Positions 799 to 38,982 of a DNA stretch of 39,933 nucleotides are shown one piece after another. Position 1 is the stretch's first letter; every line of letters begins with the position of its first letter. The stretch is taken from contig JAUCBJ010003080.1 of the NCBI GenBank assembly GCA_032718475.1, positions 1 through 39,933 on the forward strand, in the 5' to 3' direction. The notes under the pieces are model-generated. The model saw nothing but the letters and a program-made list of their open reading frames with translations. It had not been told where the DNA came from and did not search any database. Both the position numbers and the translations under genes were made by a program. This stretch comes from Nemertoderma westbladi. Lineage: Eukaryota; Animalia; Xenacoelomorpha.

Positions 799-1202
799 AA
801 CACAAGTAGCTGACAAAAAGTACATCGTTTTGTTAACCCAAAACAATGCTTGTTGACACAGACATTTATTTTCGTTATCGAAGCGGGGAACATAACTGAA
901 TTCATATTATTAAAGTTAATCATATGGAAGGAGAGTATATGAGCAACGACTCCCGGTTAGATCTAAATGTAGGGCGTGGCGTGGATGAGATGAACTTTCA
1001 GGAGTTGCTTAATTAACATTTAATTAAATTAAACGTCTGCTTTACGTTCATATTTTGTAGTAACTACTGTGCATATTTGTTGTATTTTGTTTTAATATAC
1101 AAATGTTTTATTTGTATTGTATTTTGTATTGTGCAGTAAACTATGTACTAAGTTGTGAATAGATAAGGCATTATAATACATCATTATGTCGGGATACAGT
1201 AA

Positions 1203-4200
1203 ATTTTGTAGTACTGATTACCAGTTGTTCGTATTTTGTAGTACTGATTACCAGTTGTTCGTATTATATAGTACTGATTACCAGTTGTTCGTATTATATA
1301 GTACTGATTACCAGTTGTTCATATTATGTAGTACTGATTACCAGTTGTTCGTATTATATAGTACTGATTACCAGTTGTTCGTATTATATAGTACTGATTA
1401 CCAGTTGTTCATATTATGTAGTACTGATTACCAGTTGTTCGTATTATATAGTACTGATTACCAGTTGTTCGTATTATATAGTACTGATTACCAGTTGTTC
1501 GTATTATGTAGTACTGATTACCAGTTGTTCGTATTATGTAGTACTGATTACCAGTTGTTCGTATTATGTAGTACTGATTACCAGTTGTTCGTATTATATA
1601 GTACTGATTACCAGTTGTTCGTATTTTGTAGTACTGATTACCAGTTGTTCGTATTATATAGTACTGATTACCAGTTGTTCGTATTATGTAGTACTGATTA
1701 CCAGTTGTTCGTATTATGTAGTACTGATTACCAGTTGTTCGTATTATATAGTACTGATTACCAGTTGTTCATATTATGTAGTACTGATTACCAGTTGTTC
1801 ATATTATGTAGTACTGATTACCAGTTGTTCGTATTATGTAGTACTGATTACCAGTTGTTCGTATTATATAGTACTGATTACCAGTTGTTCGTATTATGTA
1901 GTACTGATTACCAGTTGTTCGTATTATATAGTACTGATTACCAGTTGTTCATATTATGTAGTACTGATTACCAGTTGTTCGTATTATATAGTACTGATTA
2001 CCAGTTGTTCGTATTATATAGTACTGATTACCAGTTGTTCATATTATGTAGTACTGATTACCAGTTGTTCGTATTATATAGTACTGATTACCAGTTGTTC
2101 GTATTATATAGTACTGATTACCAGTTGTTCGTATTATATAGTACTGATTACCAGTTGTTCGTATTATATAGTACTGATTACCAGTTGTTCGTATTATATA
2201 GTACTGATTACCAGTTGTTCGTATTATATAGTACTGATTACCAGTTGTTCGTATTATATAGTACTGATTACCAGTTGTTCATATTATGTAGTACTGATTA
2301 CCAGTTGTTCGTATTATATAGTACTGATTACCAGTTGTTCGTATTATGTAGTACTGATTACCAGTTGTTCGTATTATATAGTACTGATTACCAGTTGTTC
2401 GTATTATATAGTACTGATTACCAGTTGTTCGTATTATATAGTACTGATTACCAGTTGTTCGTATTATATAGTACTGATTACCAGTTGTTCATATTATGTA
2501 GTACTGATTACCAGTTGTTCGTATTATGTAGTACTGATTACCAGTTGTTCGTATTATATAGTACTGATTACCAGTTGTTCGTATTATGTAGTACTGATTA
2601 CCAGTTGTTCGTATTATGTAGTACTGATTACCAGTTGTTCGTATTATGTAGTACTGATTACCAGTTGTTCGTATTATGTAGTACTGATTACCAGTTGTTC
2701 GTATTATGTAGTACTGATTACCAGTTGTTCATATTATGTAGTACTGATTACCAGTTGTTCGTATTATATAGTACTGATTACCAGTTGTTCGTATTATATA
2801 GTACTGATTACCAGTTGTTCATATTATGTAGTACTGATTACCAGTTGTTCGTATTTTGTAGTACTGATTACCAGTTGTTCGTATTATGTAGTACTGATTA
2901 CCAGTTGTTCGTATTATGTAGTACTGATTACCAGTTGTTCGTATTATATAGTACTGATTACCAGTTGTTCGTATTATGTAGTACTGATTACCAGTTGTTC
3001 GTATTATGTAGTACTGATTACCAGTTGTTCGTATTATATAGTACTGATTACCAGTTGTTCATATTATGTAGTACTGATTACCAGTTGTTCGTATTATGTA
3101 GTACTGATTACCAGTTGTTCGTATTATGTAGTACTGATTACCAGTTGTTCGTATTATGTAGTACTGATTACCAGTTGTTCGTATTATATAGTACTGATTA
3201 CCAGTTGTTCGTATTTTGTAGTACTGATTACCAGTTGTTCGTATTATGTAGTACTGATTACCAGTTGTTCGTATTATGTAGTACTGATTACCAGTTGTTC
3301 GTATTATGTAGTACTGATTACCAGTTGTTCGTATTATGTAGTACTGATTACCAGTTGTTCGTATTATGTAGTACTGATTACCAGTTGTTCGTATTATGTA
3401 GTACTGATTACCAGTTGTTCGTATTATATAGTACTGATTACCAGTTGTTCGTATTTTGTAGTACTGATTACCAGTTGTTCGTATTATGTAGTACTGATTA
3501 CCAGTTGTTCGTATTTTGTAGTACTGATTACCAGTTGTTCGTATTTTGTAGTACGGATTACCAGTTGTTCGTATTATGTAGTACTGATTACCAGTTGTTC
3601 GTATTTTGTAGTACTGATTACCAGTTGTTCGTATTTTGTAGTACTGATTACCAGTTGTTCGTATTTTGTAGTACTGATTACCAGTTGTTCGTATTTTGTA
3701 GTACTGATTACCAGTTGTTCGTATTTTGTAGTACTGATTACCAGTTGTTCGTATTATATAGTACTGATTACCAGTTGTTCGTATTATATAGTACTGATTA
3801 CCAGTTGTTCGTATTATATAGTACTGATTACCAGTTGTTCGTATTTTGTAGTACTGATTACCAGTTGTTCGTATTTTGTAGTACGGATTACCAGTTGTTC
3901 GTATTATATAGTACTGATTACCAGTTGTTCGTATTATATAGTACTGATTACCAGTTGTTCGTATTATATAGTACTGATTACCAGTTGTTCGTATTATCGT
4001 AGTTGCGTGATTACCAGTTGTTCGTATTATGTAGTACTGATTACCAGTTGTTCGTATTATATAGTACTGATTACCAGTTGTTCGTATTATGTAGTACTGA
4101 TTACCAGTTGTTCGTATTTTGTAGTACTGATTACCAGTTGTTCGTATTTTGTAGTACTGATTACCAGTTGTTCGTATTATATAGTACTGATTACCAGTTG

Positions 4201-5370: not shown

Positions 5371-5989
5371 GATTGATGAGGATAATCTCGCGAAAGTCAG
5401 GGCGATAGGGAGTTGTGGCGGCGCAATTTCATCGATAATCCGGAATAGCATTCTTAATGCACACAGCATTGGAGCGTGTCAATTGTGGTGTTAAGCCGGC
5501 ATAACATCCCAATGTGCAGTTGCAATACAGCAGAGCGATTATAATAATAGTATTAGTAGTAAGCTGGGGTCAAGATAGCTTCAAACTTGTTTGCTTTTTG
5601 GGGAATGGGGAAGCCTATTTCTTGAGTCCCGGTGAAGCTCCTGTGCGATCCGCGACACCGCATTATCTACCGTAGCGATAGTAGGCCTATCGCGTGCGGA
5701 GTAGAAGTAACAAACTGTTCGCAGTCGTAATCTGAGATTTCGTGAAAATCTTATTCATAAATTGGTACTTTTTTGTTGCTTATTATTCTTAAAGAGAACG
5801 AAATAGAGTTACAAAATAAATTGAACTGCAGTATTTTACATTTACTAAATGACTTCCATAGTTTCTGCGATTGCAATTATTGTAGCCTACTCTTCAACTC
5901 CTGACCATGGCTTACAATATATACGGCGCAACAGGTTGTCAATTTGGCCTAGAAAAAAGAGGCCAGTTTTATGATATGCGGAGAGTTTG

Positions 5990-6415
5990 ATTATTGGATG
6001 TTTGCAACCGGATGTTGAAAGGGGAAAAGCCACCATCACTTTGGACTAAAGGTCAACTAAAGTCTCTCACTAAGAAAGGAGACCTCGGTATACCAACAAA
6101 CTATCGTGGGATCTGTCTGCTTGTGGTAGCTGCCAAAATATACAATAAAATGATTCTATATAGAATTAGACCTCACATAGAGAAACTACTGCATAAGAGC
6201 CAAAACGGATTTCGACCAAGTAGATCAACAATATAGCTAAGATACTTGCGCTACGGAGACTGATTGAAGGAATTAAGTCAAAGAATCTCCCCGACTTCAA
6301 GAAAGCATTCGACTCAATCCATAGAGGTAAATTTCTGGAAATCCTAAGAGCTTATGGAATACCAGAGGTAATTGTGGCTGACATTGGATTATTATATTGT
6401 GACACAGAAGCTCTG
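5990..6415 (+). pseudogene. Decayed RTE-clade LINE reverse transcriptase fragment (RT domains 0-3)
   Basis: KKGDLGIPTNYRGICLL..AAKIYNKMILYRIRP....QNGFRPSRST, then ILALRRLIE and DFKKAFDSIHRGKFLEILRAYGIP. Stops and frameshifts are present. Confidence 0.9.
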
Positions 6416-9123: not shown

Positions 9124-11571
9124 ATGGCGATGGCTTACGGAATCAGAAAACGGTCTCCTGAAAACGAAATCTTTGATGATTACGAACTAAATCCATATTC
9201 GGATGAACTCCAACATCTCAATGGTATTGATGATATTCACAAGGATGTAGATTACCATTTTGGAACTGGTTTGATCCCGCAAAAGGCAAAACGACGCAGA
9301 TTGATATCTAGAAACGATCGTTATCATGAAATTGAGAAATGTGACGAATTTGAGAGTGATAGCGGAAAGGTAGGACGATCGCAGTTTTTGATCGATTATG
9401 AAGACTTAATACAAAAGAATAATCATCATAATATTGAGCAACTAGACGATAATTCATTTCCAAACAGGAATATTGGAAATATAACTGCAAAAGTTCATAA
9501 CAATAGACAGTTTAGTGACGATTTGCCATATTTTAATATACCTGTCACGTCTCCTCTACATTCCTCTATCATACAAAATCGCATTCCTGACGAGCCTAAT
9601 TGGCATTCAAGGGGAAGTCCATTGCCAACCAGTAATGTAGATATGGTGTATCGCCTAGCAAAGCAGCCGACGGGAGAGATTGCACATCCTTCCGGGTTCG
9701 ACGCTTGTCGGGATAGAAAAAATGAGGATAATGACAGATTAGCTGTTTATTTGACAGAAGCGGAGTATCAATACCTTCGGATGGGACATAATGAAGCCTT
9801 GCAGAATGTTAAAAACGAAAGGAGTTTTCGGAGCTATCAACCCGGTACACGAATACCGCGACACAACAGGCCTGATTTTATGAGGCCGATTCAACGTCCT
9901 TCGAATACCAGGCGTGACCCCGGTTTGTTTGAAAGTGTTGCTTGTGATCGCGGGAATTTAACTCACCACAATGATGCAAGGCAAACAAAATGTTCAAAGA
10001 ATCGCGATGAGGTTCGGTATTGTAACTCCAGGGAACCGTTGATGAGTGATAACCGCCAATTCCGCTCCAATGAAATTGAACGATGTGATTATCTCCCACG
10101 GGAAAATCTACGTATTGATAATGACGGGTGTTCACATGGTGATGACATGGAGGAAAGTCCAAATGGGAGGAGAGAATGTAATCCTCGTGTTTATAGTGAG
10201 AATAAAAAGCAACGGCATGCTTATATTGGGGTTAGAGATAGATCCGCGTTTGGGGAATTATATGGAAGGCCCATCATAAATAAAAGCACCCTAGGTGATA
10301 CTCGACCCACAGTGTCGAGAGATAAACCACATCAGGATCGGATACTTACCTCTAACCATTTATCTGAAAATGGGCGATCGAATCTCCATAACCATAATCA
10401 CATATATAATAGTGATTGGAATTTCTCATATGATAGGGGACATTCGAAAAGACATAGGAAATGTCCAAAAATGTATTGGGAATCTCTTAAAAGTCCTCCA
10501 CGTCGCAGTGGGATGGGTGATTGTATTGGAAAATCATCAGATACCTGCTGTGATCATCACACTACCGGTGAGATAGAGCGTCAGTGTACACCGCGACCGC
10601 CTACCTGTTGCCATCCCTCTCTATCAAAGTGTCGGATCATAAGGAGTCAATGTTGTTGTTCATTTACTTCGAGTAGAGAATCCCAAGGCAACACTGATCA
10701 GAATATTCGTAGTTGCTGTTCCCTCACTCATCAAAGACAGAATTGTACTTCCCCTACAGTCAATCATTCCATCCCCGTAAAACTACCCACTTCAATTGGA
10801 AACGCCAAGTGTTGCAAATTCCATCCTCGCGATCACGGGAAAACACATCGCACTTCGAGCATCTCCAACACAGTTGTTGATAAACAATGCAGCAAGCGTA
10901 TCAGTAAGGCTGAAAGAGCTGAAGTGTATCAATGTAAGAGTGTTCACGCCTGTAAGAGCGCTCCTCCAACCGAGACAAAAGGGAACATTCCTTCGCCCCA
11001 GCTTCGTAGCTGTCACAGTGCTGGAGTTGATATCTCTGTAACAAATGTTCCGTCAACCAGGAAGTTACGCACTCCATCCTCTGTGGCATGTTCAACAATC
11101 ACTGCTGACAATCGAAGTTCATTGCGTGGTGAACTGCACCGGCGGTGCAATGCACCGATATTATGTGCTGATGAAAGCCGTGGTGATTGCAATGCACCGA
11201 GATTCTGTGCTGATGAAAGCCCCAAGGAGACCTTTGTGTTATCACACAAACCGGTACCCTCCAATGATGTGCGACAACCTCTGATTGTTTATGACAATGA
11301 TGAGTATTACACCTATAACCTAAATGGAAAGACTCATGCCAAACCAATGGGTGGCGACTATAAAGCAAGGTATACTTCGACAAGGAGAAAAATCAACAAG
11401 CAAAAATATTTATTGTCGCCTGGTAGCAAGTGGACGTTGGAGATGCAGAAGATATTTGATAGCGCAGCTGCGCGAGACCAGTCGGGTAACAATTGGACGC
11501 CAGTCGGGACGGGCAATATATTCGAATACGACCCGCACTATCGTATAAAACGACAATTGCAAAAATGTTGA
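9124..11571 (+). CDS. Uncharacterised 815-aa protein: probably disordered, Arg/Ser/Asp-rich, with a Cys-rich central region; single uninterrupted ORF
   Basis: A 2448-bp non-repetitive ORF in AT-rich DNA, with higher GC than its flanks. AATAAA follows at ~11634-11643 and a possible acceptor (tttttag) lies at ~9106-9112. No domain was recognised. Confidence 0.75.
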   Translation: MAMAYGIRKRSPENEIFDDYELNPYSDELQHLNGIDDIHKDVDYHFGTGLIPQKAKRRRLISRNDRYHEIEKCDEFESDSGKVGRSQFLIDYEDLIQKNNHHNIEQLDDNSFPNRNIGNITAKVHNNRQFSDDLPYFNIPVTSPLHSSIIQNRIPDEPNWHSRGSPLPTSNVDMVYRLAKQPTGEIAHPSGFDACRDRKNEDNDRLAVYLTEAEYQYLRMGHNEALQNVKNERSFRSYQPGTRIPRHNRPDFMRPIQRPSNTRRDPGLFESVACDRGNLTHHNDARQTKCSKNRDEVRYCNSREPLMSDNRQFRSNEIERCDYLPRENLRIDNDGCSHGDDMEESPNGRRECNPRVYSENKKQRHAYIGVRDRSAFGELYGRPIINKSTLGDTRPTVSRDKPHQDRILTSNHLSENGRSNLHNHNHIYNSDWNFSYDRGHSKRHRKCPKMYWESLKSPPRRSGMGDCIGKSSDTCCDHHTTGEIERQCTPRPPTCCHPSLSKCRIIRSQCCCSFTSSRESQGNTDQNIRSCCSLTHQRQNCTSPTVNHSIPVKLPTSIGNAKCCKFHPRDHGKTHRTSSISNTVVDKQCSKRISKAERAEVYQCKSVHACKSAPPTETKGNIPSPQLRSCHSAGVDISVTNVPSTRKLRTPSSVACSTITADNRSSLRGELHRRCNAPILCADESRGDCNAPRFCADESPKETFVLSHKPVPSNDVRQPLIVYDNDEYYTYNLNGKTHAKPMGGDYKARYTSTRRKINKQKYLLSPGSKWTLEMQKIFDSAAARDQSGNNWTPVGTGNIFEYDPHYRIKRQLQKC

Positions 11572-23527: not shown

Positions 23528-24600
23528 ATGGTGCGGAGCGGACACATACACACGTAAGCGTAAGCCAGGCTGCCAGGGTAGCAGGGAAACGAGGTTCCCC
23601 AAAATTATACTTCGGACACAGTTCGGAGAGTATGGAAGCAGCAATTAAAGCCATTTCCAAGGGGACATCGATTAAAAAAGCCTCAACAATCCATAAAATT
23701 CCTTATGGAACTCTTTGGAACCAAGTCCATAAATATAAAGACCGGAAAGTTGCCAACAGGCAACAGCTCTTACAGACAAAGAGGAAATGGATCTTGTGAG
23801 AGTGATAAACTGATCAAAGAGGTGACAGAGTGGAAATTCCCGTTATGCCCAATTGATATAAAGGATATGATCCGAGATTATTTAAACCGAAAAGGCGAGA
23901 CCAACGGGGTTTTTAAAGATAATACACTGGGCAATGACTGGTTGAAGAGTTTCATTAAACGTCATAAACTTACACGTCGGATTGCAGACAACTTTAAACT
24001 GGTTTGACTGTCGAGGTCGTCGAGGGATTCTTTGAGAATTGGTCGAAGGTAATTGAAAATATTCCCCCTGAAAATATTTTTAATTACAATGGGACAAACA
24101 CTACTGCACTAGGGACGATCCTGGTGCTGTTCATGTGATTGATTACACAGCGATGTTTAACAGTTTAAGACGTGTGGAGAGAGTGGATGGTAGGACCAGC
24201 GCTGTTTCGAACTGTGGTTCTTTATATCTTTAACACCTTCTTGCCTCATTGCCAGACACTTCCTGGTGTGAAGGTGTTAGTAGGTGACAATTGAGGAAGT
24301 CACTTCTCGCTGAAGGTGATTCTAGCATGTGTGGATAATAATAACAAGTTCGTTCAGTCGTTGCATTGCCACCAAATGCATCACATATAATGCAACCCCA
24401 AGACGTTGGTTGCTTCAGAACACTCAAGAGAGTTTGGCGGGATATTTTAAATATTTGGAGGCGGGAGAGTCTGTCTCGTGGGTCAATACCAAAGAACCAA
24501 TATCCAAGGCTCCTCAAGAAGTTATGTCTGAGTGTGGCTGATCTCCAATCAGCCAAATCTCCTAGTCGCTGGGTTTAAAGGCAGTGGGTTATATCCAAGG
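23528..24600 (+). pseudogene. Decayed pogo/Tigger-family DDE transposase
   Basis: psq-type HTH (MEAAIKAISKGTSIKKASTIHKIPYGTLWN), CENP-B-type HTH (GNDWLKSFIKRHKL), IPPENIFNY, DDPG, GDN.SHF and LPPNASHIMQPQDVGCFRTLK, spread across frameshifts and stops. Confidence 0.9.
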
Positions 24601-26394: not shown

Positions 26395-29300
26395 ATGAAG
26401 GTTGCTTTTTTATCGCAGTGGAAAAATGGAAATAAGTCAGTTGTTAAAGCACTCCAGCTCAGGGAACAGGGGATGTGTATCAAACGTCAGAATATCCGCT
26501 TGGCCCAAATTGCTGAAGATAAATCAATGCATTGCAACTTTGATACAAAATCTGTGTCCCTAACAGGAAATGTTAGATCTTCCTTTTTAGTAACTTTCAA
26601 TTCGGACTGGACACTAATGGCGTCAACCCACGGTGACCACAACATTCATATAACGAATATCGATTCTGGCAAAGAAATAAAAACCTTAAGCGGTCACCCA
26701 CGGACGCCTTGGACGGTAACATTCCACCCCACGCAGAAAGACATCCTCGCAAGCGGGTGTTTGGGTGGTGAGGTTCGAGTTTGGGATTTGGATGGTGGTA
26801 GTGAAGTGTGGACTTACAATCAGTTTATAGTCATATCGTCTGTGTCATTCCACCCTTCTAAACAGCTTCTAGCCATCGCAACGTCCAACGAGATATTTCT
26901 ATGGGATTGGAGTCAATCAGTCCCACAAATCAGCATGAAAACCGACTCAGTGGCTGAAAAAGTGCGCGTAGTGCGGTTTGATGCGACAGGACGTTACCTA
27001 TACACCGCCATTACTAATCCGATGTCGCCAGGATCCGGCGAAACGTCTACAGCTCGCGGGGTATCTTTCCACTTCAGTCGTCCCACGGTTTACTCCCGCT
27101 CTTTTGCCCCCTTTGGCTCTGATTCCTCAGCGGAAGTAGGTCATCCTTCTCCACTCATAAGAAAAAGAAACACACAGAGTTCTCTTCCTGGGAATTTGCG
27201 CAGGAGATTGAGCGGCTTGATCTCACAGGTGGAAAAACTCAAACAGGAAGCGACAATTCAACGTCGTACATTGTTCAATCTGATGTCCGGTAGAAACCGG
27301 CGTTCCTCTGTAACCCCATCCGAGTCGGTGAAACAGGCTGGATCCTCGACTTCCGTCGATCAGGTTTCTCGCGAGCCTGGTACCTCAACGTCCTCATTTC
27401 GTTCTCTATTTGAAGAAATTCGCTCCCGCATTAACCTGTGCAAAGAAATTCGTAATAAAGTTACTACTAGCGAGACTTCTAGTGGCATATCTAATGGGTA
27501 CAGTCAGCTGCATGATGCCTATTCAGCATTAATGTCGGGCTTAGAGCGGTTAATGTCTCAGATTTCTGATGTGCAGGGCGATGTGCACCTGGGCCGTAGC
27601 GCAGAGAGTAACGTCTCTACTGTTAGTGGTGCTAGCACCTCAGATAACAGGAAGTTAAACTTAAAACTCAGAAAACTTACACCGGTGAAGAAATCAGAGT
27701 CCACAAATATGTCAGTCTCAATGTCCATGATAGACCGTGGAAAAGGTACGCGAATCGAAGATGCAAACAAGCCACTTAGATTGGGTGTCCAGCATTCTTC
27801 TACTTCGATAGGGTTTGAGCCTAGCGAACCTCCCTCTCAAATTGATAGTAGTAATAGTAAGCAGATTGATGATAATCGTAGTAAAATCAAAATAGAAGCT
27901 AAGTGTACCGAACAAGAAGAGTCATCAAGCTCTGAAAGATCCACCAAATCGCAATTAGTAAAAGAGTTAATGAAGAGTCTGGATAGCCTAGAGAGTACTC
28001 TCGATAACTACAGCCTAGAGAATAGCGGTACTCTCGATAACTACATTGCTAAGGTGGAAGGCAAATATGGAGCTGAATCAAACGATACTTCGTCGGAGAG
28101 ATCACGTACTGGATCGTCCAAACTCGTGAGAAAGAGGTCTACGTGTGGCTCATTTGGATCCGGTAATGGGTCATCTAGATCCGGTGGTGGGCCATCTGGA
28201 TCCGGTGTTGGGTCGTCTGGATCCGGTGGTGGACCATCTGGATTCGGTGTTGGGTCATCTGGATCCGGTGGTGGGCCATCTGGATCTACTGGAGGTGAAT
28301 CTGGATCTGCTGATGGCTCGCCTGGATTTGGTGGTGGGTTATCTGGATCCGGTGTGAAATCACCTGGATCCCCCATGTGCCACTCAGGCAATCGGTTTGG
28401 TGCGGGAGTCGGTCGTGTAACTCGTCAAATGTTACGGTCTTTGTTTGATGGCAGTGCGTCTTGTCCTTCTAGGTTAGACGCCCCTACATCTACGTCTTTA
28501 CAGTCTAGAAAACGTAAAAATGCTTCTCCAGATAAAGTTAGTAGCAATGACGCTTCTATTGGAAGGGCTATCTCGCGGAGGTCTGCTAGCCTCAAACAGG
28601 CGAGATTTACAAATGTCGACGACGTTGCAATTAGTAAATCGAAGGATGTTAATGTTTGTAAGGCTAGTAAAGGGTCGAGTGCAAAAGTGTTGGCAAACAA
28701 AGGAGGAAATTATATGGCAGCTGCTAATGGGGCGTCTTCCACTTGTAGTCTAAATATATCCTCCAATGTGGGCAACTTCGTTAAAGAAAGTTTCCCTGAC
28801 ATTGATAAAGACAAACCCTCTTCAGGAGAAGCTAATCAATTTGGGTTGAAGAGAAGGAAGGTTTCCGCTCTAGCAAATGATAGAGCTATAAGAAGTAATT
28901 GTAAAGGAAGTTCATCCAACGAGAGAGCTCAGAAAAGGGGCGGTAAGGCAAGTTCATCCAATGGGAGACCTGGGAAAAGGGGCGGTAAGGCAAGTTCATC
29001 CAATGGGAGACCTAGGAAAAGGGGCGGTAAGGAAGGTCCACCCAATGAGAGAGCTAGAGGGAGAGTTGTTAAGTCAACTCTATCCGACTTGGGAATGGAT
29101 GGAAAGAATAGCACAATACACAAGTTATTGCGACGCCCTGTGGTTGTTATACAGCCGGATATTGGTGGGCGGAAACGGAAAGTTAGCCAGCCATTGAAAT
29201 CGGAAACCCCATCCGCAGCTTCTCAAACTCCAGCTGAAACTCCCCAAAGGGATTGGGTATTTTTTAGCAACGGTTTTGTGGATAGAACCATTCTCGGAGG

Positions 29301-30825
29301 ATCCAATCCATCTCCCATTCAGACTACGTCCAATGGTAATGAGTCAACATTTCAACCAATTGGCTCAAACGGCCCCCGCGTTGCGTCTACGTCTACGCCC
29401 GTTGGTGGAATCTCTGAAGAAGGGGGTGATCCTGTGCAGACTCCCATCTACTCCCATGCAGGCCCGTCTCAGGCAAGTACTACATCGCAGACATCTGACT
29501 CCGTAGCAGGGCGGGGCTGGACCGTTCATTTACAGATGCAGGACGATCAGCCGCCCCGAATAGGCAGGTCGTTGGTAGCCCGATACAGGATGCGGACACG
29601 ACATCGTTCCAGCAGCCCACCCCGCCCGCCACCCGCCACAACCCCAGCTCCTCCACCCGTATCTTCCGAACCCCCGGCGCCGCCACCAGCGCCGTCCCAA
29701 GTGCGAACCCGCATCCGTTTACGGATGGAGGACGATGAATCGCCGGAATCGCCCCCCGATCTCACCGTAACCGTCCGGGTCTTGCACGACCCCGGGAGCG
29801 ACGCGGCCTCCCCCGAACCAACCCCTGCCCCGGTTCCCCCGCTGTTCCCCCGGCGATCTCGCCTCCTCCGGCCCCCCATGTGGATCTCAACCGAGCGTCG
29901 ACCCCCACCACGAGGGGCCCCCCCTCCCGCCGGGGCCGGCAGCCCCCCGTCGCCCCCCAGCGGGCTGGCCCCCTCCGGCGTGTGGTTAGACCCGCCGCTG
30001 ATCCCGTCATCTCGCGTCTCCTTCGGTCGACCGCACGCCACACCCGAAGAAACCACGTCCCTCCAAACCGCTATAAACCGCGCCATCGCCGGCGCATTCG
30101 CCAACGTTCTAGAGAACGCCAGTGGCAACGGGAGCGGCGGACTGCACAACCAGACATGTCGCATTCAGTGTTGGGACATAGATTCGATGCCGAGCATCTC
30201 CGACCCGGACGCCAACGTCCTCGTCCCACATTGTAAGATCCTAAACGACTCGAGTATCGATATATCTTCGGACGGCCGGTTATTAGCGACATTCATTCCG
30301 TTCTACGGCTCCTACCCTTCCTACCACTCACCCTCAGCTGTTGGGATATTCTCTTTGGAGTCCGCAACTAAAGGGAGATTGCTTCACACTAAACCGGTGG
30401 GCCCAGCGGCAGTCAGTCTCTCCATATCGCCCCGGAGTCGTTACATCCTACTCGGACTCGGCTCCAACCGACTGAACTGGCATTTCGGTTCGTCCAGACA
30501 GGCGATCGCCGAGATCCTGCAGTTGGTATCGCAACCGGGGTCGTCCGAGGCCGCGCTGCTGCAACACGTTGCCTCGGTGAACCACGATAACGCGACGGTG
30601 TCCCGTAGGTCCACGTTCGTGAGCGTGAACGCGGCCAAGTGGCTGCCACAGACCGCCGTCGGGTTCGTTTACGGCACGAGTCGAGGCGATCTGCATATGT
30701 GTCGCGCCGCAACCCCCAAAGTTGTTCCTGTTCCTTCAGTGTTCCTCACGGATATATTCAGTTCCCGGGGTGGTCGTGACTCATCCTTGTCGCAGTCGGC
30801 CTCGACTCAAACTGATTTATTGTGA
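26395..30825 (+). CDS. AMBRA1: AMBRA1-like (DCAF3) split-WD40 CRL4-DDB1 substrate receptor and autophagy regulator; CDS without introns
   Basis: The N-terminus (MKV...VVKALQLREQG...RSSFLVTF..D.TLMASTHGDHNI...GHPRTPWTVTFHP...ASGCLGGEVRVWDLDGGSE...EKVRVVRFD..GRYL.TAI.NP) parallels human AMBRA1. So does the C-terminus (T.RIQCWD...NVLVPHCKILNDSSIDISSDGRLLA...SPRSRY...VSVNAAKWLP...YGTSRGDL). A long disordered linker separates them, and a TQT motif lies at the C-terminus. Confidence 0.95.
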   Translation: MKVAFLSQWKNGNKSVVKALQLREQGMCIKRQNIRLAQIAEDKSMHCNFDTKSVSLTGNVRSSFLVTFNSDWTLMASTHGDHNIHITNIDSGKEIKTLSGHPRTPWTVTFHPTQKDILASGCLGGEVRVWDLDGGSEVWTYNQFIVISSVSFHPSKQLLAIATSNEIFLWDWSQSVPQISMKTDSVAEKVRVVRFDATGRYLYTAITNPMSPGSGETSTARGVSFHFSRPTVYSRSFAPFGSDSSAEVGHPSPLIRKRNTQSSLPGNLRRRLSGLISQVEKLKQEATIQRRTLFNLMSGRNRRSSVTPSESVKQAGSSTSVDQVSREPGTSTSSFRSLFEEIRSRINLCKEIRNKVTTSETSSGISNGYSQLHDAYSALMSGLERLMSQISDVQGDVHLGRSAESNVSTVSGASTSDNRKLNLKLRKLTPVKKSESTNMSVSMSMIDRGKGTRIEDANKPLRLGVQHSSTSIGFEPSEPPSQIDSSNSKQIDDNRSKIKIEAKCTEQEESSSSERSTKSQLVKELMKSLDSLESTLDNYSLENSGTLDNYIAKVEGKYGAESNDTSSERSRTGSSKLVRKRSTCGSFGSGNGSSRSGGGPSGSGVGSSGSGGGPSGFGVGSSGSGGGPSGSTGGESGSADGSPGFGGGLSGSGVKSPGSPMCHSGNRFGAGVGRVTRQMLRSLFDGSASCPSRLDAPTSTSLQSRKRKNASPDKVSSNDASIGRAISRRSASLKQARFTNVDDVAISKSKDVNVCKASKGSSAKVLANKGGNYMAAANGASSTCSLNISSNVGNFVKESFPDIDKDKPSSGEANQFGLKRRKVSALANDRAIRSNCKGSSSNERAQKRGGKASSSNGRPGKRGGKASSSNGRPRKRGGKEGPPNERARGRVVKSTLSDLGMDGKNSTIHKLLRRPVVVIQPDIGGRKRKVSQPLKSETPSAASQTPAETPQRDWVFFSNGFVDRTILGGSNPSPIQTTSNGNESTFQPIGSNGPRVASTSTPVGGISEEGGDPVQTPIYSHAGPSQASTTSQTSDSVAGRGWTVHLQMQDDQPPRIGRSLVARYRMRTRHRSSSPPRPPPATTPAPPPVSSEPPAPPPAPSQVRTRIRLRMEDDESPESPPDLTVTVRVLHDPGSDAASPEPTPAPVPPLFPRRSRLLRPPMWISTERRPPPRGAPPPAGAGSPPSPPSGLAPSGVWLDPPLIPSSRVSFGRPHATPEETTSLQTAINRAIAGAFANVLENASGNGSGGLHNQTCRIQCWDIDSMPSISDPDANVLVPHCKILNDSSIDISSDGRLLATFIPFYGSYPSYHSPSAVGIFSLESATKGRLLHTKPVGPAAVSLSISPRSRYILLGLGSNRLNWHFGSSRQAIAEILQLVSQPGSSEAALLQHVASVNHDNATVSRRSTFVSVNAAKWLPQTAVGFVYGTSRGDLHMCRAATPKVVPVPSVFLTDIFSSRGGRDSSLSQSASTQTDLL
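28155..28372 (+). repeat. In-frame 21-bp tandem repeat (Gly/Ser heptads) inside AMBRA1
   Basis: TCTGGATCCGGTGGTGGGCCA-type units, ~10 copies, encoding SGSGGGP/SGSGVGS. Confidence 0.9.
28905..29052 (+). repeat. In-frame 42-bp repeat (SSSNGRPGKRGGKA, ~3.5 copies) inside AMBRA1
   Basis: AAGGGGCGGTAAGGCAAGTTCATCCAATGGGAGACCT is repeated. Confidence 0.85.
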
Positions 30826-33642: not shown

Positions 33643-34789
33643 ACAAGTCCCTAAAAGGTGCCACCCTGCTCCATAGCGCGGGAAATTCAATTGATTGAAA
33701 GACATGTTATTTGTACTGGAAAGGGTGGCAGATCAGATCTGCCACCTATATATTGGCGGTAAATTCAAATCTGTTTTAACATTGAATACATGAATAGAGT
33801 AAGACCAATCTGCCAATGTAATTCATTGAATCAGAATAAATTATTTATTATCGGTTTAACTCACTCATCCGTTAACGTTGTTGATTTATCTATTCTGGGA
33901 CTTCGAGCAGCACGTGAACAACTAAACCAGCACGCTAACTACCGGTAGTCTGGGGCTTCGAGCACCACGTGAAACAACTAAACTGGCTGGTTACCTAGTC
34001 TGGGACTTTGAGCAGCACGTGAACAACTAAACCAGCACGTTAACTTGTCTGGGGCTTCGAGCAGCACGTGAACAACTAAACTGGCTGGTTACCTAGTCTG
34101 GGACTCCGAGCAGCACGTGAACAACTAAACCTGCACGTTAACTAGTCTGTTACTTCGAGCAGCACGTGTACAACTATGCTGCCTGGTAAACAAGTCTGGG
34201 ACTTCGAGCAGCACGTAAACAAACTAAGCTATGACTGGTTAACTAGTCTGGTACATGTCTGGGACAGATATAGCAGTATAGGCAGAAGCATTATACACCT
34301 ATTGTTATTACAGTTAGGGCCTACCTGCGATATATTTTACTATCAGTTCCCTGCTATATTGTTATAATTATAATGTTCTGATGTAATTATAACTGATACA
34401 AGCAAATAATAAATGTTCTTTACATTCTACTGATAGAAGTTAAGCCAAATCCCCTGATCCCCCCTCCTCAATTTGCAATTTTGCTCGAAGTCCCAGACTA
34501 GTTAACCAGTCAGCTTATTGTTCACGTGCTGCTCGAAGTCCCAGAATAGATAAAACAACAACAATAACGGATGAGTGAGTTAAACCGATAATAAATAATT
34601 TATTCTGATTCAATGAATTACATTTAGTCTTACTCTATTCATGTATTCAATGTTAAAACAGATTTGAATTTACCGCCAAAATATAGGTAGCAGATCTGAT
34701 CTGCCACCCTTTCCAGTACAAATTACATGTCTTTCAATCATTTGAATTTCCCGTGCTATGGAGCAGGGTGGCACCTTTTAGGGACTTGT
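33643..34789. mobile_element. Foldback/Mutator-like non-autonomous element with ~280-bp TIRs, an internal 49-bp tandem array and a 10-bp TSD
   Basis: Termini ACAAGTCCCTAAAAGGTGCCACCCTGCTCCATAGC... and ...GCTATGGAGCAGGGTGGCACCTTTTAGGGACTTGT. TSD TTATTATGCC at 33633-33642 and 34790-34799. Seven copies of CTGGGACTTCGAGCAGCACGTGAACAACTA at 33895-34230, with inverted copies at 34484-34544. Confidence 0.9.
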
Positions 34790-35565
34790 TTATTATGCCT
34801 ACCACCGGTACTATATTATTTCCGTAGGCCTACACCAAACAATGATAGGCTGATAGGCCTACAGCAAGGGCAACAGCAACTCTGCTACAGTACTGCAGTA
34901 GTAGAGTTGTCCTTGGCCAACAGCTGTAGGTACAGAGCTAGGTATTGCAGTATTGTCCAAAATACCACAACTGCAGAACTCAGAACTGTAGAGTACAGAC
35001 CAAGGACTACAGGTAGTCCTTCTGGTACAAACATCAGAACATAACCAGATAAGAGATAACGTATGATTTAGGAGTACGGCAACGGTACCCATAAAGCTTT
35101 GAGGCATATTTCCAAGGCAACAAGGGCAAATGGAGAATGGAGTCCTTTATACTGTTACCGGTACCGTATATCGATGTTGCAATGGGCAGATGGGGGTGAT
35201 GTGCTAGCTAGCTGGCTATGGGCTGGGCTAGCTAGATAGATTCAATCTGTTTTCAAGCTTCGTCAGTTCGTCCTTCCCCTTCGTGGATCTCGCTCTGTAG
35301 CTTCTAACTAGCTTAAGAAAGAACGCCGTCTGGCATTGGCAGTGTGTCCGGAGGTCAAGTGAGCCTAGCTAGTTTCGCGGAAATGTGAACGCCTGAACTG
35401 GTTTAGCAAGACTTTTGGGTACCTTGGAGTTTGGAGAGTCCTGGCAGCCAGAGTTGTAGTGGTCTGGAGGTATGCTAGTTAAGTTACTAACAGAACAGTA
35501 ACCCCTAATTTAAAATATATATTATTGTATTAAATTTTAAACTGTCAACAAATGACAATAATATA

Positions 35566-38211
35566 ATGGATATTGATACTGTCACAAATAATATTAAACG
35601 GTTGGTGGAAGACTTGACTCATATACGCATATGCTCATATATTTCAGTCGATGACATCCTTTATCAGCTATTGGGGAATCTTCTTACCATTGATGAAATT
35701 GGGCGGATTAAGTCTGAAAAAGTAAGCAGTGCTAAAGTAATTGCCTTATTAAACACACTACTAAAAAAACTAGAAGGGAAAGATTCCAAACAAAAAAAGG
35801 AAATACTGGAAGTATTCATTCATATTTTGAAGGCAAGTCCACCGCATGCATATATTGCAAATCAGTTAGAGACCGGCTTAATTGGGGATGATTGTGATTT
35901 TGCCTACAAAAGAGCCCTGCTAAAAATGTCCTCAAACTTAGTAGAGCAATGTGATCCCAAAGATATGTTGATATTTTTTAAGCAGCACGGGGTATTCGGA
36001 TCAAGAACCCTGGAACTGATAGAGTATACACCTTCTTGGGAAGCAACCGATTGTATAATTGAACACCTTCTAGATTGTGCGCCTGGGTGGCAAGAATCTC
36101 TCAAAGAGGCATTAACTAGTCACCGCATAGATCAGGGACATTTATGGGACAAATTATATGAAATCTATGAAGAAGAGCTTAAAAACATACGTCAAAGAAA
36201 AGATAAATTTACAGAGTTCGTTTTTCCAACATTATCTGAACAACCATTATCTGTAACTGCAGATGTTAGTGAATCTGAGGTGGTTGTGCCTCACATTCAA
36301 CAAACAAATATAATTCCACTTCAACCTGATCTGAGTTCTGGCTATCTTGAGCCACTCGATTACCTTGGCGAATTTTATGTTGATGACTTAGAATTTCTAC
36401 AAAATATTACCGAAAATCTAATTACAAAAGGTGATAATATATCTAAAATTATTGACATAGTTAATTGCGTGTTATGTTGTGACACACCATCATCAGTAGA
36501 TCAACTTACAGATCTATCAGATATAAATCTCAAAATTAGCAACCTAAAGGGTATATTGAAGAATTTAATTGAGAAAAGAATTCATTTATTGTTGAATAAC
36601 GACTTCTTTTTTGAAATGTATTTAAAAAAATTGAAAGATGCCATTCAAATAACAGCATTTCGCTTGTTCGCTGACGTTGCTGCAAGCTCGAACTCAAAGT
36701 TACGTACTGATTTTATAATATGCCGTACAAACTTTGAAGGTTTAATTTCGAGGTTATTATCCGGGGATATTAACTGTAAGTGGATGGGAGATGCAGGGAT
36801 CATGGATGATGAGCATATAGAGACGTTATGCAAGATGTTGGCTCGTTTGGAAGTCTGTGATAGATTCAACGATTCAAATGACCAAGATAAAATCAATTTT
36901 GGTGACATTAATAGGCTTCGTCAACTTATTATTGTTGATGATTCTAGTTCAACTCAGATTGTTAGTGAAAGTTTCTCTCATTTATTTAATTTCCGTTTCT
37001 GCCGAATGTTAAGCGATACTATTAAAGATTTAGAGAGTAACGAGGATTTGAAGGGATCTGATGTGACGAGTTACAGGAATGATTTGATTGTAATAGCCAC
37101 CAGTGCTGATATAGCGAAGAAGAAGATTGAGAGTATTATGAAATCTTTGCCAATGATAATAAATCATAATACGGAATGGAAGTTATTTAAATTTGTTGGC
37201 GATCAATTAGAAAAAATTGATAATATTAAGTCAACAAAGTACAAGTACACTATAATTGTGGAGAAGTTCCATGAATCTATTATAACATTGAGAAATAGCG
37301 ATATCGATCGATGCATCGACATTCCAAACCATCCTGATGATTGTGATATTCCATCCTCTACGTTTAAAGATAGAGAAAACGAATTTTTAAATTTCTTCCA
37401 AAAGTACTGTTATAGTTGTGAAAGTTGGCTTGGAATTTCAAAATCGAAACGCAAAGAAATTGCAAACAAGCACGTTGATGAGTTGAAAATTTTCTTTCAC
37501 ATAAATCAAAACATCCCCAATGATATTATGTTCACTGATTTAGGAGACAGACATTGCCCAATAATATCACAAATTAATTCTTACAAGTTATCTTTGCGGA
37601 ATATGATCAAACGATTTCTACCCTCGCTACTCATTTGTGTTGCCTTCAACATGGGGAAGAAATACAACACTAAATCCTTTACTGACCTCGCGAATATTGT
37701 TGAGAAACTACCAAAGGAGGTAATCGAAAAGGAAATGAGAGCCATAAAGGATAGAGTGAAAACGGCACCTTTGTTAGGGAAAAAAACAAAGCTGATTGTG
37801 TACTTAGAAGTAAATCCAAAGTTAGAACGTTCCGCACACTATGATGATCCTAATCTAACTTTAGACCAGATATCGATTATAACGAAGTATCGTTTGGGCG
37901 ACACTAATCTCCGTAATGAGGTTGGCCGTTATCCCGGAAAAAACGCCGACGATAGAATCTGTCTCTATTGCGATGAGAAACAACCGGAAGATATCAAACA
38001 TTTCCTGTTTGGATGTCCTAGTTACGATGATTTGAGAGGTAAATACAAAGAGAAGGGGATTTTCTTTGATCCCACTTCCAAAAGTCAACTCGATTCAATG
38101 TTTAATAAAACAGATTTTATTCTATTGGCTGATTTTTTAAAAGAAATGGAAGAGCGAAGAGATGAAATGTTTAAACAGATTCCTATTGCGGAAGGCGAAT
38201 TTGTGACCTAG
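35566..38211 (+). CDS. 881-aa protein: tandem CARD-like (RIG-I 2CARD-type) N-terminus, helical middle, and LINE-ORF2-like C-terminal CCHC zinc-binding domain; single uninterrupted ORF
   Basis: A 2646-bp ORF. Residues ~5-103 and ~112-198 show death-fold spacing (ILYQL..LLTIDEIGRI...KVIALLNTL; YKRALLKM...LVEQCDPKDML...ATDCIIEHLL...GWQESLKEAL...LW). Residues ~739-870 read KL.VY...ITKYRLGDTNLRNEVGRY...RICLYC...EDIKHFLFGCPSYDDLR. Confidence 0.82.
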   Translation: MDIDTVTNNIKRLVEDLTHIRICSYISVDDILYQLLGNLLTIDEIGRIKSEKVSSAKVIALLNTLLKKLEGKDSKQKKEILEVFIHILKASPPHAYIANQLETGLIGDDCDFAYKRALLKMSSNLVEQCDPKDMLIFFKQHGVFGSRTLELIEYTPSWEATDCIIEHLLDCAPGWQESLKEALTSHRIDQGHLWDKLYEIYEEELKNIRQRKDKFTEFVFPTLSEQPLSVTADVSESEVVVPHIQQTNIIPLQPDLSSGYLEPLDYLGEFYVDDLEFLQNITENLITKGDNISKIIDIVNCVLCCDTPSSVDQLTDLSDINLKISNLKGILKNLIEKRIHLLLNNDFFFEMYLKKLKDAIQITAFRLFADVAASSNSKLRTDFIICRTNFEGLISRLLSGDINCKWMGDAGIMDDEHIETLCKMLARLEVCDRFNDSNDQDKINFGDINRLRQLIIVDDSSSTQIVSESFSHLFNFRFCRMLSDTIKDLESNEDLKGSDVTSYRNDLIVIATSADIAKKKIESIMKSLPMIINHNTEWKLFKFVGDQLEKIDNIKSTKYKYTIIVEKFHESIITLRNSDIDRCIDIPNHPDDCDIPSSTFKDRENEFLNFFQKYCYSCESWLGISKSKRKEIANKHVDELKIFFHINQNIPNDIMFTDLGDRHCPIISQINSYKLSLRNMIKRFLPSLLICVAFNMGKKYNTKSFTDLANIVEKLPKEVIEKEMRAIKDRVKTAPLLGKKTKLIVYLEVNPKLERSAHYDDPNLTLDQISIITKYRLGDTNLRNEVGRYPGKNADDRICLYCDEKQPEDIKHFLFGCPSYDDLRGKYKEKGIFFDPTSKSQLDSMFNKTDFILLADFLKEMEERRDEMFKQIPIAEGEFVT

Positions 38212-38982
38212 GTAGTTAAAGTTTGTAAATGTTCTTCGATGAAAAATTTGTTTGTAAAGAAGCTATTGTTATCACTATTATCTACCGAGATTTGCATTTT
38301 CTTTCTGGGTGTACCGGTACCGCTATATATTAAACCTTACATGAGTTGGCTGGTTTTTATAGCAACATACACCAACGCGAATATCTGAATTGCGGTGAAC
38401 TGAAACTAGTGGATGAAAATTATTTACTAAACATTTTTTTTATTGAATACAATCTCAAAAATCATAGTTTTTTAAATTTCGTTTCATTTTCTGCACCACA
38501 AAACAAATGATTTTGAAAAATATATGCCAATTTAATGAAGTTTCTTAAAGTCGTGATAAAACATTCTGACACTAAAATGGATAGTTCTAAATTAGAAGTT
38601 ATTGGGGTATTTCGAAATTATAAATACACCAATAAAACACCTCGAAAACAGTGAAAATTTGGATTGCACTTCAACACTTTACAGATTACGGGATTATCCT
38701 ACCCTAACAATACACCAATTGAATAATACAGTAATTCCTTCCGGTTGTGCCAGTACTCAGCGGTTTGGTGTATAATTTTAGATTCTTTCGATATATTTTT
38801 AGCGGCATATAAGTTATATTAGTAGTGTTTTCTCCTAGGATGTGCTGTGCGAGGAGTACATTTAGGATTATCAATTACTTAGAATATTACATGTGTTAAA
38901 ATTCCTGCCTCTCAATATTTTCACTGTTTCCGGATTTTTTACAGTGTTTTCCTTGTATTTTATTGTTTTCCTAATTTGGAAC

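What the first reader, a model, noticed from the sequence alone, without database searches (positions are those of the whole stretch)
35566..38211. Tandem-CARD protein fused in frame to a retrotransposon (LINE ORF2) zinc-binding C-terminal domain: candidate new innate-immune sensor or decoy
Seen: one intact 881-aa ORF. Its first ~200 aa are two consecutive death-fold-like units, and the second closely follows the RIG-I CARD2 pattern (YRLLL...PTDII...AEKLVECLL...NWPKTLKLAL...LW versus YKRALL...PKDML...TDCIIEHLL...GWQESLKEAL...LW). There is no Walker A or DExD/H helicase, NACHT or caspase motif. The last ~140 aa (from ~37780) instead carry the run KL..Y...TK.RL....L..E.GRY...R.C799xxC802...ED..H812FL..C817P.Y..LR. 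Known: this run is the signature of the C-terminal CCHC region of CR1/L2-group LINE ORF2, which follows the RT domain; here no RT or endonuclease is present. Inference: a domesticated retroelement nucleic-acid-binding module has replaced the helicase/CTD of an RLR-like receptor. The protein could sense LINE RNA or RNP, or act as an integrated decoy coupling retroelement activity to CARD signalling. The TE relics nearby are all frameshifted, while this segment is open and keeps all four zinc ligands.
Basis: partly seen in the sequence, partly recalled or inferred. Interest (0 to 1): 0.85.

Follow-up and report, generated by a model that had tools for sequence, protein, structure and literature searches.

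The report
Death-signal domains on tamed LINE enzyme
An animal gene joins two cell-death signalling (CARD) domains to an eroded copy of a jumping gene's copying enzyme and zinc-binding tail, with a sister gene that lacks the CARDs, and it likely works as a sensor that would link jumping-gene RNA to cell death.

Summary
The 881-aa ORF, two CARDs and the CCHC tail are confirmed. Single alignments to intact LINE ORF2 run from the RT YxDD loop (aa 505) through the zinc knuckle. Weaker, collinear evidence extends the LINE part to aa ~262. So an eroded RT is present and only the endonuclease is gone. The first Asp of YxDD is Asn, so the polymerase is likely dead. The gene is single-copy with one paralog (G000:C1505, 68% identical, dS 0.8, dN/dS 0.18-0.24). 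The paralog keeps the first CARD residues but lacks both CARDs. This fits an old, selected host fusion, not a transposon or a recent insertion. The CARDs resemble this genome's apoptotic-type CARDs, and no RIG-I-specific likeness was found. The CTD keeps 6 of 8 LINE-conserved basic residues, the RT part 4 of 26, and the module is acidic overall. Best model (0.4): a retroelement-RNA/RNP sensor feeding CARD-caspase signalling, with a CARD-less regulator. Expression, binding and orthologues are untested or not found. No earlier scan note on this architecture was found.

The parts
35566..38211 (+). Single open reading frame, 881 aa: CARD-CARD-linker-eroded LINE ORF2 (RT-like, thumb/wrist, CTD); no APE endonuclease
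   Evidence: tblastn with 69 LINE ORF2 proteins finds no endonuclease match in or near the ORF
35572..35877 (+). CARD 1 (aa ~3-104); its first 13 residues are shared with the CARD-less paralog
   Evidence: PF00619 24.9 bits, cut-off 23.9; 84% DNA identity over 58 nt to G000:C1505
35893..36165 (+). CARD 2 (aa ~110-200), acidic (net -11 over aa 106-205)
   Evidence: own-genome CARD HMM 19.5 bits, 0 of 1000 shuffles; collinear with tandem ROCO CARDs; charge
36181..36348 (+). Linker (aa 206-261), predicted coil
   Evidence: no secondary structure over aa 216-261 in the low-confidence model; no LINE or CARD match
36349..36942 (+). Likely eroded N-terminal RT region (aa 262-459); register of motif A ambiguous; strongly acidic
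   Evidence: anchored global z 2.7 for Q, 1.7 for the paralog; 22 of 88 strongly conserved LINE columns matched, 28 in gaps; hhalign E 0.004
36943..37200 (+). RT palm (aa 460-545) with motif B Gln464 and motif C YRND at aa 503-506 (37072-37083); first Asp replaced by Asn (paralog YKDD)
   Evidence: Q464 and D506 invariant across all 64 rows of alignment A3; HSP from codon 505; motif positions
37201..37785 (+). Palm-to-thumb connection (aa 546-612, poorly conserved) and thumb/wrist region (aa 613-740, basic, net +11)
   Evidence: model aligns to L1 ORF2p up to residue 1062 at about aa 728 (model biased by LINE rows)
37786..38208 (+). LINE ORF2 C-terminal domain with CCHC knuckle (C799 37960, C802 37969, H812 37999, C817 38014); keeps 6 of 8 LINE-conserved basic residues
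   Evidence: zf-RVT E 0.07

Best explanation
This single-copy, purifying-selected gene fuses two CARDs to an eroded LINE ORF2 lacking the endonuclease, and it likely acts as a sensor whose wrist and zinc-knuckle tail would bind retroelement RNA or RNP and whose CARDs would then recruit CARD-bearing caspase or Apaf-1-type partners. Shown: the architecture, single-copy status, selection against the paralog, Asn at the first YxDD Asp, and retention of basic and zinc residues in the CTD. Inferred: an ancient LINE of the group still active in this genome landed in frame behind a tandem-CARD gene (or captured one) and lost endonuclease and polymerase chemistry. The gene then duplicated, and one copy deleted aa ~34-268 in frame, giving a CARD-less form that would compete for ligand, as LGP2 does among RLRs. 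Untested: transcription, ligand, CARD partner and autoinhibition.
For: Selection: NG86 dN/dS 0.24 (CI 0.19-0.31) at dS 0.80 over 588 codons, all sub-regions with upper CI <=0.45; ML omega 0.18, LRT p 2e-33. Copy number: the 2CARD part has 1 match (itself) among 7 candidates, the middle 2 of 2. A sampled intact LINE has 10 of 69 scored matches at >=95% identity, itself included. Age: stem of 1.6 substitutions per site to the LINEs against tips of 0.23 and 0.14. Fusion predates duplication: the paralog keeps the first CARD codons. A CARD region decaying at 0.4 substitutions per site stayed stop-free in 0 of 300 simulations. Binding surface: the CTD keeps 18 of 31 strongly conserved LINE columns and 6 of 8 basic columns; thumb/wrist is as basic as or more basic than all 62 LINE rows. 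In L1 all five core domains contact template or primer, and the CCHC may bind single-stranded nucleic acid (PMC10830420, passages). Output side: 133 CARD matches, 48 caspase-domain matches. The best two of 71 CARD units for CARD2 belong to CARD-caspase-like genes (scores 67, 65; next 59).
Against: No expression data could be examined. The LINE-derived module is acidic (pI 5.6; paralog 5.5) while all 62 LINE rows have pI >=8.0, and even the CTD is net -6. The RT part keeps only 4 of 26 conserved basic columns. RT homology upstream of aa 460 is weak: paralog z 1.7, deep-profile hhalign best E 0.017 on a 32-column piece, no Pfam RVT_1 hit, Atlas hits under 0.9 with 106-112 shared features. No orthologue was found, so selection rests on one paralog pair and cannot be measured on the CARDs. 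The CARD2 preference for caspase-like CARDs is a small margin. The CTD shows lower dS (0.46) than the rest, so some conversion cannot be excluded.
Confidence: 0.4

Rival explanations
1. Protein-level decoy or guard: the acidic RT-like module no longer binds nucleic acid but mimics ORF2p (or nucleic acid) to catch ORF1p, host cofactors or a pathogen antagonist, and so trips the CARDs.
For: Net charge reversed against all 62 LINE rows; 22 of 26 conserved basic columns of the RT part lost; a new 29-residue block identical between the paralogs at aa 327-355.
Against: The CTD keeps 6 of 8 basic columns and all four zinc ligands in both paralogs; thumb/wrist is basic in the window gene.
Confidence: 0.2
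2. Housekeeping or developmental death adaptor: the dead RT fold serves as a scaffold, as in Prp8, with no link to retroelements.
For: Catalytic Asp lost; the profile of these CARDs matches apoptotic CARDs; steady purifying selection rather than rapid change; precedent of non-catalytic Prp8 (PMC5718144, passages).
Against: The most LINE-like part retained is the nucleic-acid-facing CTD, which a pure scaffold need not keep.
Confidence: 0.15
3. Dominant-negative LINE restriction factor: the ORF2-like module is the working unit (as in the CARD-less paralog) and the CARDs are optional or only oligomerise it.
For: The paralog is intact and selected without CARDs; related LINEs are young and abundant here.
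Against: The CARD region has stayed open since before the duplication; for L1TD1 and Lyosin, reporter assays showed no L1 repression (bioRxiv 10.1101/2024.04.25.591049, passages).
Confidence: 0.1
4. Not a host gene: a protein of an unusual low-copy retroelement, an unexpressed relic, or an assembly join.
For: No transcript evidence; no orthologue; active retroelement lineages also show dN/dS below 1 (established knowledge).
Against: Two loci only, no young copies; no endonuclease match; no convincing target-site duplication; flanks not shared beyond 16 nt upstream; the same start joined to the same RT on a second contig argues against a mis-join.
Confidence: 0.08
5. Only aa ~460-881 are LINE-derived; aa 262-459 are an unrelated helical host domain (nearer the first reader's anatomy).
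For: Weak statistics for this stretch; model pLDDT mostly under 50 there even with LINE rows; two competing registers.
Against: Whole-middle anchored score z 3.3, above all 93 natural control windows from 44 ORFs (max 3.04); collinear motif matches from aa 270; length matches the missing RT part.
Confidence: 0.07

Closest known systems
APE-type LINE ORF2p (human L1 ORF2p, PMC10830420; R2 protein structures; this genome's intact LINE families)
   Same: Collinear palm, thumb/wrist and CCHC CTD; the biased model's top matches are R2 and L1 ORF2p (Foldseek E 1.2e-3; Z 9.6, rmsd 5.4, 453 aligned).
   Different: No endonuclease, two CARDs in its place, first YxDD Asp is Asn, fingers eroded, acidic, single copy.
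RIG-I-like receptors RIG-I/MDA5 and CARD-less LGP2 (PMC7827607, passages)
   Same: Layout: N-terminal tandem CARDs, C-terminal nucleic-acid-type module with a zinc site, and a CARD-less paralog.
   Different: No DExD/H helicase or RLR CTD; CARDs not RIG-I-like in the tests run. The likeness is of logic, not descent.
Domesticated LINE proteins: L1TD1, Lyosin (ORF1p), BCNTp97 (RTE endonuclease) (bioRxiv 10.1101/2024.04.25.591049, abstract and passages)
   Same: LINE coding sequence fused to or kept as a host gene under purifying selection.
   Different: Those use ORF1p or the endonuclease; here the RT-wrist-CTD part is kept and joined to death-fold domains.
TRADD-N/DED genes fused to retrotransposons in marine invertebrates (PMC8195603, section 11)
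   Same: Death-signalling adaptor domains fused directly to retrotransposon sequence, proposed as a route to new immune architectures.
   Different: There TRADD-N, with no evidence in the text read of selection on the transposon part or of a dead RT used as a domain; source-data supplements were not seen.
Domesticated RT folds: rvt genes, TERT, Prp8 (PMC5718144, passages)
   Same: RT fold retained by the host; Prp8 lost its catalytic residues.
   Different: None of these is described there with CARDs or a LINE wrist/CCHC tail; this pair is so far confined to one genome.

Membership tests
CARD (death-fold) domain | Sequence profile match, unit 1 | tested here: met
   PF00619 24.9 bits vs cut-off 23.9 for aa 1-105; 20.6 in the whole protein
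CARD (death-fold) domain | Sequence profile match, unit 2 | tested here: met
   19.5 bits on own-genome CARD HMM, 0 of 1000 shuffles; no Pfam hit
CARD (death-fold) domain | Six-helix Greek-key fold | tested here: inconclusive
   Single-sequence model has six helices per unit but mean pLDDT 35; fold searches on it gave only generic helical matches
RIG-I-like receptor | DExD/H helicase core and RLR C-terminal domain | tested here: not met
   No such Pfam family in the protein; the space is filled by LINE-derived sequence
RIG-I-like receptor | RIG-I-type CARDs (PF16739) | tested here: inconclusive
   E 0.011, 16.1 bits vs cut-off 28.2, on unit 1 only; none on unit 2
RIG-I-like receptor | Ligand-triggered CARD signalling through MAVS | not testable with these tools
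   needs cell assays
Autonomous APE-type LINE ORF2p | N-terminal APE endonuclease | tested here: not met
   No Pfam or tblastn match in or beside the ORF, while sampled intact elements have it
Autonomous APE-type LINE ORF2p | RT catalytic triad (L1 D600, D702, D703; PMC10830420) | tested here: not met
   YRND at aa 503-506, first Asp is Asn; motif A is Asn389 or Asp436 depending on register; paralog has YKDD
Autonomous APE-type LINE ORF2p | Thumb/wrist and C-terminal CCHC domain | tested here: met
   profile E 3.5e-33; four ligands in both paralogs
Autonomous APE-type LINE ORF2p | Dispersed young copies with target-site duplications | tested here: not met
   two loci at 68% identity; no convincing flanking duplication
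   No named references were at hand. On the tail, the pair sits with this genome's LINE group (87/87, weak) and grouping with 11 more distant tails is rejected at p-AU 0.02, a group picked after seeing the tree
Domesticated TE-derived host gene | Single copy, intact frame, purifying selection | tested here: met
   (selection measured between paralogs, aa 270-873 only)
Domesticated TE-derived host gene | Expression and orthologues at a syntenic position | tested here: inconclusive
   no run could be listed and no related genomes are held; public protein searches blank

The most novel reading that the evidence does not exclude
An animal has turned a retrotransposon's own reverse-transcriptase machine into a pattern-recognition receptor: a dead LINE ORF2 that recognises LINE RNA or RNA:DNA intermediates and fires tandem CARDs into caspase signalling, tuned by a CARD-less paralog. 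This would be a convergent RIG-I/LGP2 pair built from the parasite it watches, in a genome where RLR domain searches were blank.
Probability: 0.3. Interest if true: 0.9.

Novelty: new variant of a known kind. Interest (0 to 1): 0.72.

Why it matters
Reported LINE domestications use ORF1p or the endonuclease, and one 2024 paper calls them few. A selected CARD-CARD-RT-wrist-CCHC protein was not found in the literature searches run. If it senses retroelement RNPs it would be a dedicated LINE sensor of a new build and an animal example of a decoy or sensor taken from the parasite itself. The pair is also a natural experiment on the unresolved role of the ORF2p wrist and CCHC domain: these parts were kept while catalysis and most basic residues of the RT core were lost.

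Tried and rejected
Expression: no RNA holder was listed for window:35300-38800, so no reads were laid; this is no evidence either way. Orthologues: 0 of 7993 scored candidates for the whole protein, 0 of 715 for aa 700-870, both limited to 484-1542 aa; 0 hits at E<=0.001 for aa 1-615 among 1.84 billion representatives; 0 of 593 pattern matches confirmed in metagenome contigs. PDB sequence search with the whole protein: 0 hits. Single-sequence AlphaFold model unusable (pLDDT 35); its fold searches are meaningless and list no CARD. The second model used 62 LINE rows, so its RT fold is not independent evidence; Foldseek gave no match at E<=0.001. A complex prediction for CARD-to-RT autoinhibition was not available, so that idea is untested. 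RLR domains PF11648 and PF18119 gave no match in G000, but the controls did not ring either, so absence is not shown. The ML fit for aa 546-612 ran away and is not used. Sub-region z values use boundaries chosen after seeing the alignment and are inflated. Herpes_BTRF1 rejected as chance. Papers listed for RTEX gave no clade-defining feature. Scan notes: none on this architecture.
Full report
Observation. The ORF is real: 881 aa at 35566-38211 (+), in DNA of about 35% GC. The neighbouring AMBRA1-like WD40 gene is one 1476-aa frame, and sampled caspase and Apaf-1-like genes also lie in long single frames. A single-exon reading is therefore natural in this animal genome (G000, 407 Mb; the species was not determined).

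The N-terminus. Unit 1 passes the Pfam CARD cut-off when scanned alone. Unit 2 has no Pfam hit but scores 19.5 bits on an HMM of 67 CARD units of this genome, with 0 of 1000 shuffles above 5.0; unit 1 scores 10.7 with a best shuffle of 9.4. The pair aligns collinearly with 12 tandem CARDs of the genome's COR-containing proteins. A profile of that alignment finds 30 PDB sequences at E<=0.01, led by CED-3, caspase-9, RAIDD, CED-4 and Apaf-1, none named RIG-I, MDA5 or MAVS; 12 of its 13 rows are not the query, so this describes the CARD family, not the query alone. Among 71 sampled units, CARD2 scores best against two CARD-caspase-like genes, by a small margin. The structural check of the CARDs was inconclusive.

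The LINE part is larger than stated. Searching G000 with the protein gave 41 matches among 52 scored of 469 candidates: itself, one paralog, and 39 further matches of 24-30% identity over about aa 611-860, two reaching back to aa 484. The long frames fetched from these are LINE ORF2s; the two scanned have RVT_1 and one also the endonuclease family, and their profile matches L1 ORF2p at E 1e-50. One tblastn HSP runs from codon 505 to 38079 (E 5e-15) and one in the paralog starts before motif C (E 4e-13). MAFFT, given 62 LINE rows, placed Q464 on the invariant motif B Gln and D506 on the second motif C Asp. For the whole middle (aa 262-614) an anchored global score gives z 3.3, above all 93 natural control windows (max 3.04), but the paralog reaches only 1.7. 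hhalign gives E 0.004 with 9-14 LINE rows and 0.017 with 69. The Atlas lists RVT_1 clusters for both middles at 0.86-0.87, which is lead level only. I conclude: palm to CTD is firm; aa 262-459 is probably eroded RT, with two possible registers for motif A. A model folded with LINE rows has pLDDT 73-83 over the palm and 77-95 over most of the tail but under 50 over much of aa 262-466, and matches R2 and L1 ORF2p; this is threading, not proof. Motif C reads YRND in the window gene and YKDD in the paralog; in L1 the D702Y mutant is the RT-dead control (PMC10830420, passages), so the window protein is likely inactive. The donor clade is unresolved; the CR1/L2 label was not tested.

Host gene, not transposon. 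The paralog at G000:C1505 is an intact 630-aa frame, 68% identical over aa 270-873. dN/dS is 0.24 by counting (CI 0.19-0.31, dS 0.80, 588 codons) and 0.18 by ML, and below 1 in every region with a usable fit. The CARD region and the middle have no other copies among the candidates examined. The DNA search over 34600-38900 returned itself, the paralog (two pieces) and 38 copies of an upstream repeat, from 40 scored of 553 candidates. An intact LINE tested the same way has 10 of 69 matches at >=95%. The pair sits on a long stem with short tips. The paralog starts with the same 13 residues (84% DNA identity over 58 nt), shows a second short match to aa 25-33, then resumes at aa ~269. Since these residues are the start of the CARD match, the simplest history is fusion, then duplication, then in-frame loss of the CARDs in one copy. 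On that history the CARD region has stayed open for a time in which 0 of 300 neutral simulations did. Caveats: one pair only; active elements also show low dN/dS; CARD selection is inferred.

How it likely works. What was kept points to the tail: 18 of 31 strongly conserved LINE columns and 6 of 8 basic columns in the CTD, against 4 of 26 basic columns in aa 262-612. Thumb/wrist is net +11. Against that, the module as a whole is acidic, unlike all 62 LINE rows. I favour a sensor that grips retroelement RNA or RNP by wrist and knuckle and passes the signal through its CARDs to the genome's large caspase, Apaf-1-like and ROCO-CARD set (133 CARD matches among 150 scored; 48 caspase matches among 58), with the paralog as a CARD-less competitor. 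I put domestication at about 0.85 and this whole mechanism at 0.4.

Comparison with what is known. It is laid out like RIG-I with LGP2 (PMC7827607, passages) but fails RLR membership. It fails membership as an autonomous LINE protein. Domesticated LINE proteins in the one paper read derive from ORF1p or the endonuclease (bioRxiv 10.1101/2024.04.25.591049, abstract and passages). TRADD-N genes fused to retrotransposons are the nearest precedent for the route (PMC8195603, passages and section 11; its source-data files were not seen and could list similar fusions). Prp8 and rvt are precedents for a retained RT fold (PMC5718144, passages). Searches listed nothing whose title or abstract start describes a CARD-RT protein; the library lacks most subscription journals.

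Verdict. A real, selected, so far lineage-restricted fusion with a more surprising anatomy than first reported; function inferred. New variant of a known kind, interest 0.72.

Noticed in passing
G000:C1505:12018-13909 (L002:1402-3294, +): CARD-less paralog, 630 aa, intact, with YKDD; central to this report but outside the window.
   Followed up: yes
G000, e.g. C180, C1258, C6666, C877, C7004 (L038-L087): Large family of long single-frame genes (~1100-1200 aa) with a COR domain followed by two or three C-terminal CARDs; the Roc part is assumed, not examined.
   Followed up: partly
G000:C8978 and C8663 (L121:1477-2727, L124:1474-2778, -): CARD-caspase-like genes lacking the catalytic cysteine motif, likely pseudocaspases; C1230 keeps it.
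   Followed up: partly
window 26395-30825 (+): 1476-aa single-frame WD40 gene, AMBRA1-like (name from recall of its split propeller; Pfam gave generic WD40 families).
   Followed up: partly
window 35552-35566 (+): Four-codon upstream ORF whose stop overlaps the start codon of the gene; not present in the paralog.
   Followed up: no
window 34600-34790: Young repeat with at least 38 copies at 94-99% identity, 0.8 kb upstream of the gene.
   Followed up: no
window 1186-4002 (+): Tandem array with a 30-nt unit that reads as a 938-aa open frame; likely a satellite.
   Followed up: no
window 9124-11571 (+): 815-aa ORF with no Pfam match.
   Followed up: no
window 5910-6233 and 23705-24007: Short LINE RT relic and a Tc5-type transposase HTH fragment.
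   Followed up: no
L029:929-4969 (-), G000:C556: A LINE copy in which ORF1-like sequence and ORF2 form one 1347-aa frame, while a sister copy (L023) has them in separate frames.
   Followed up: no
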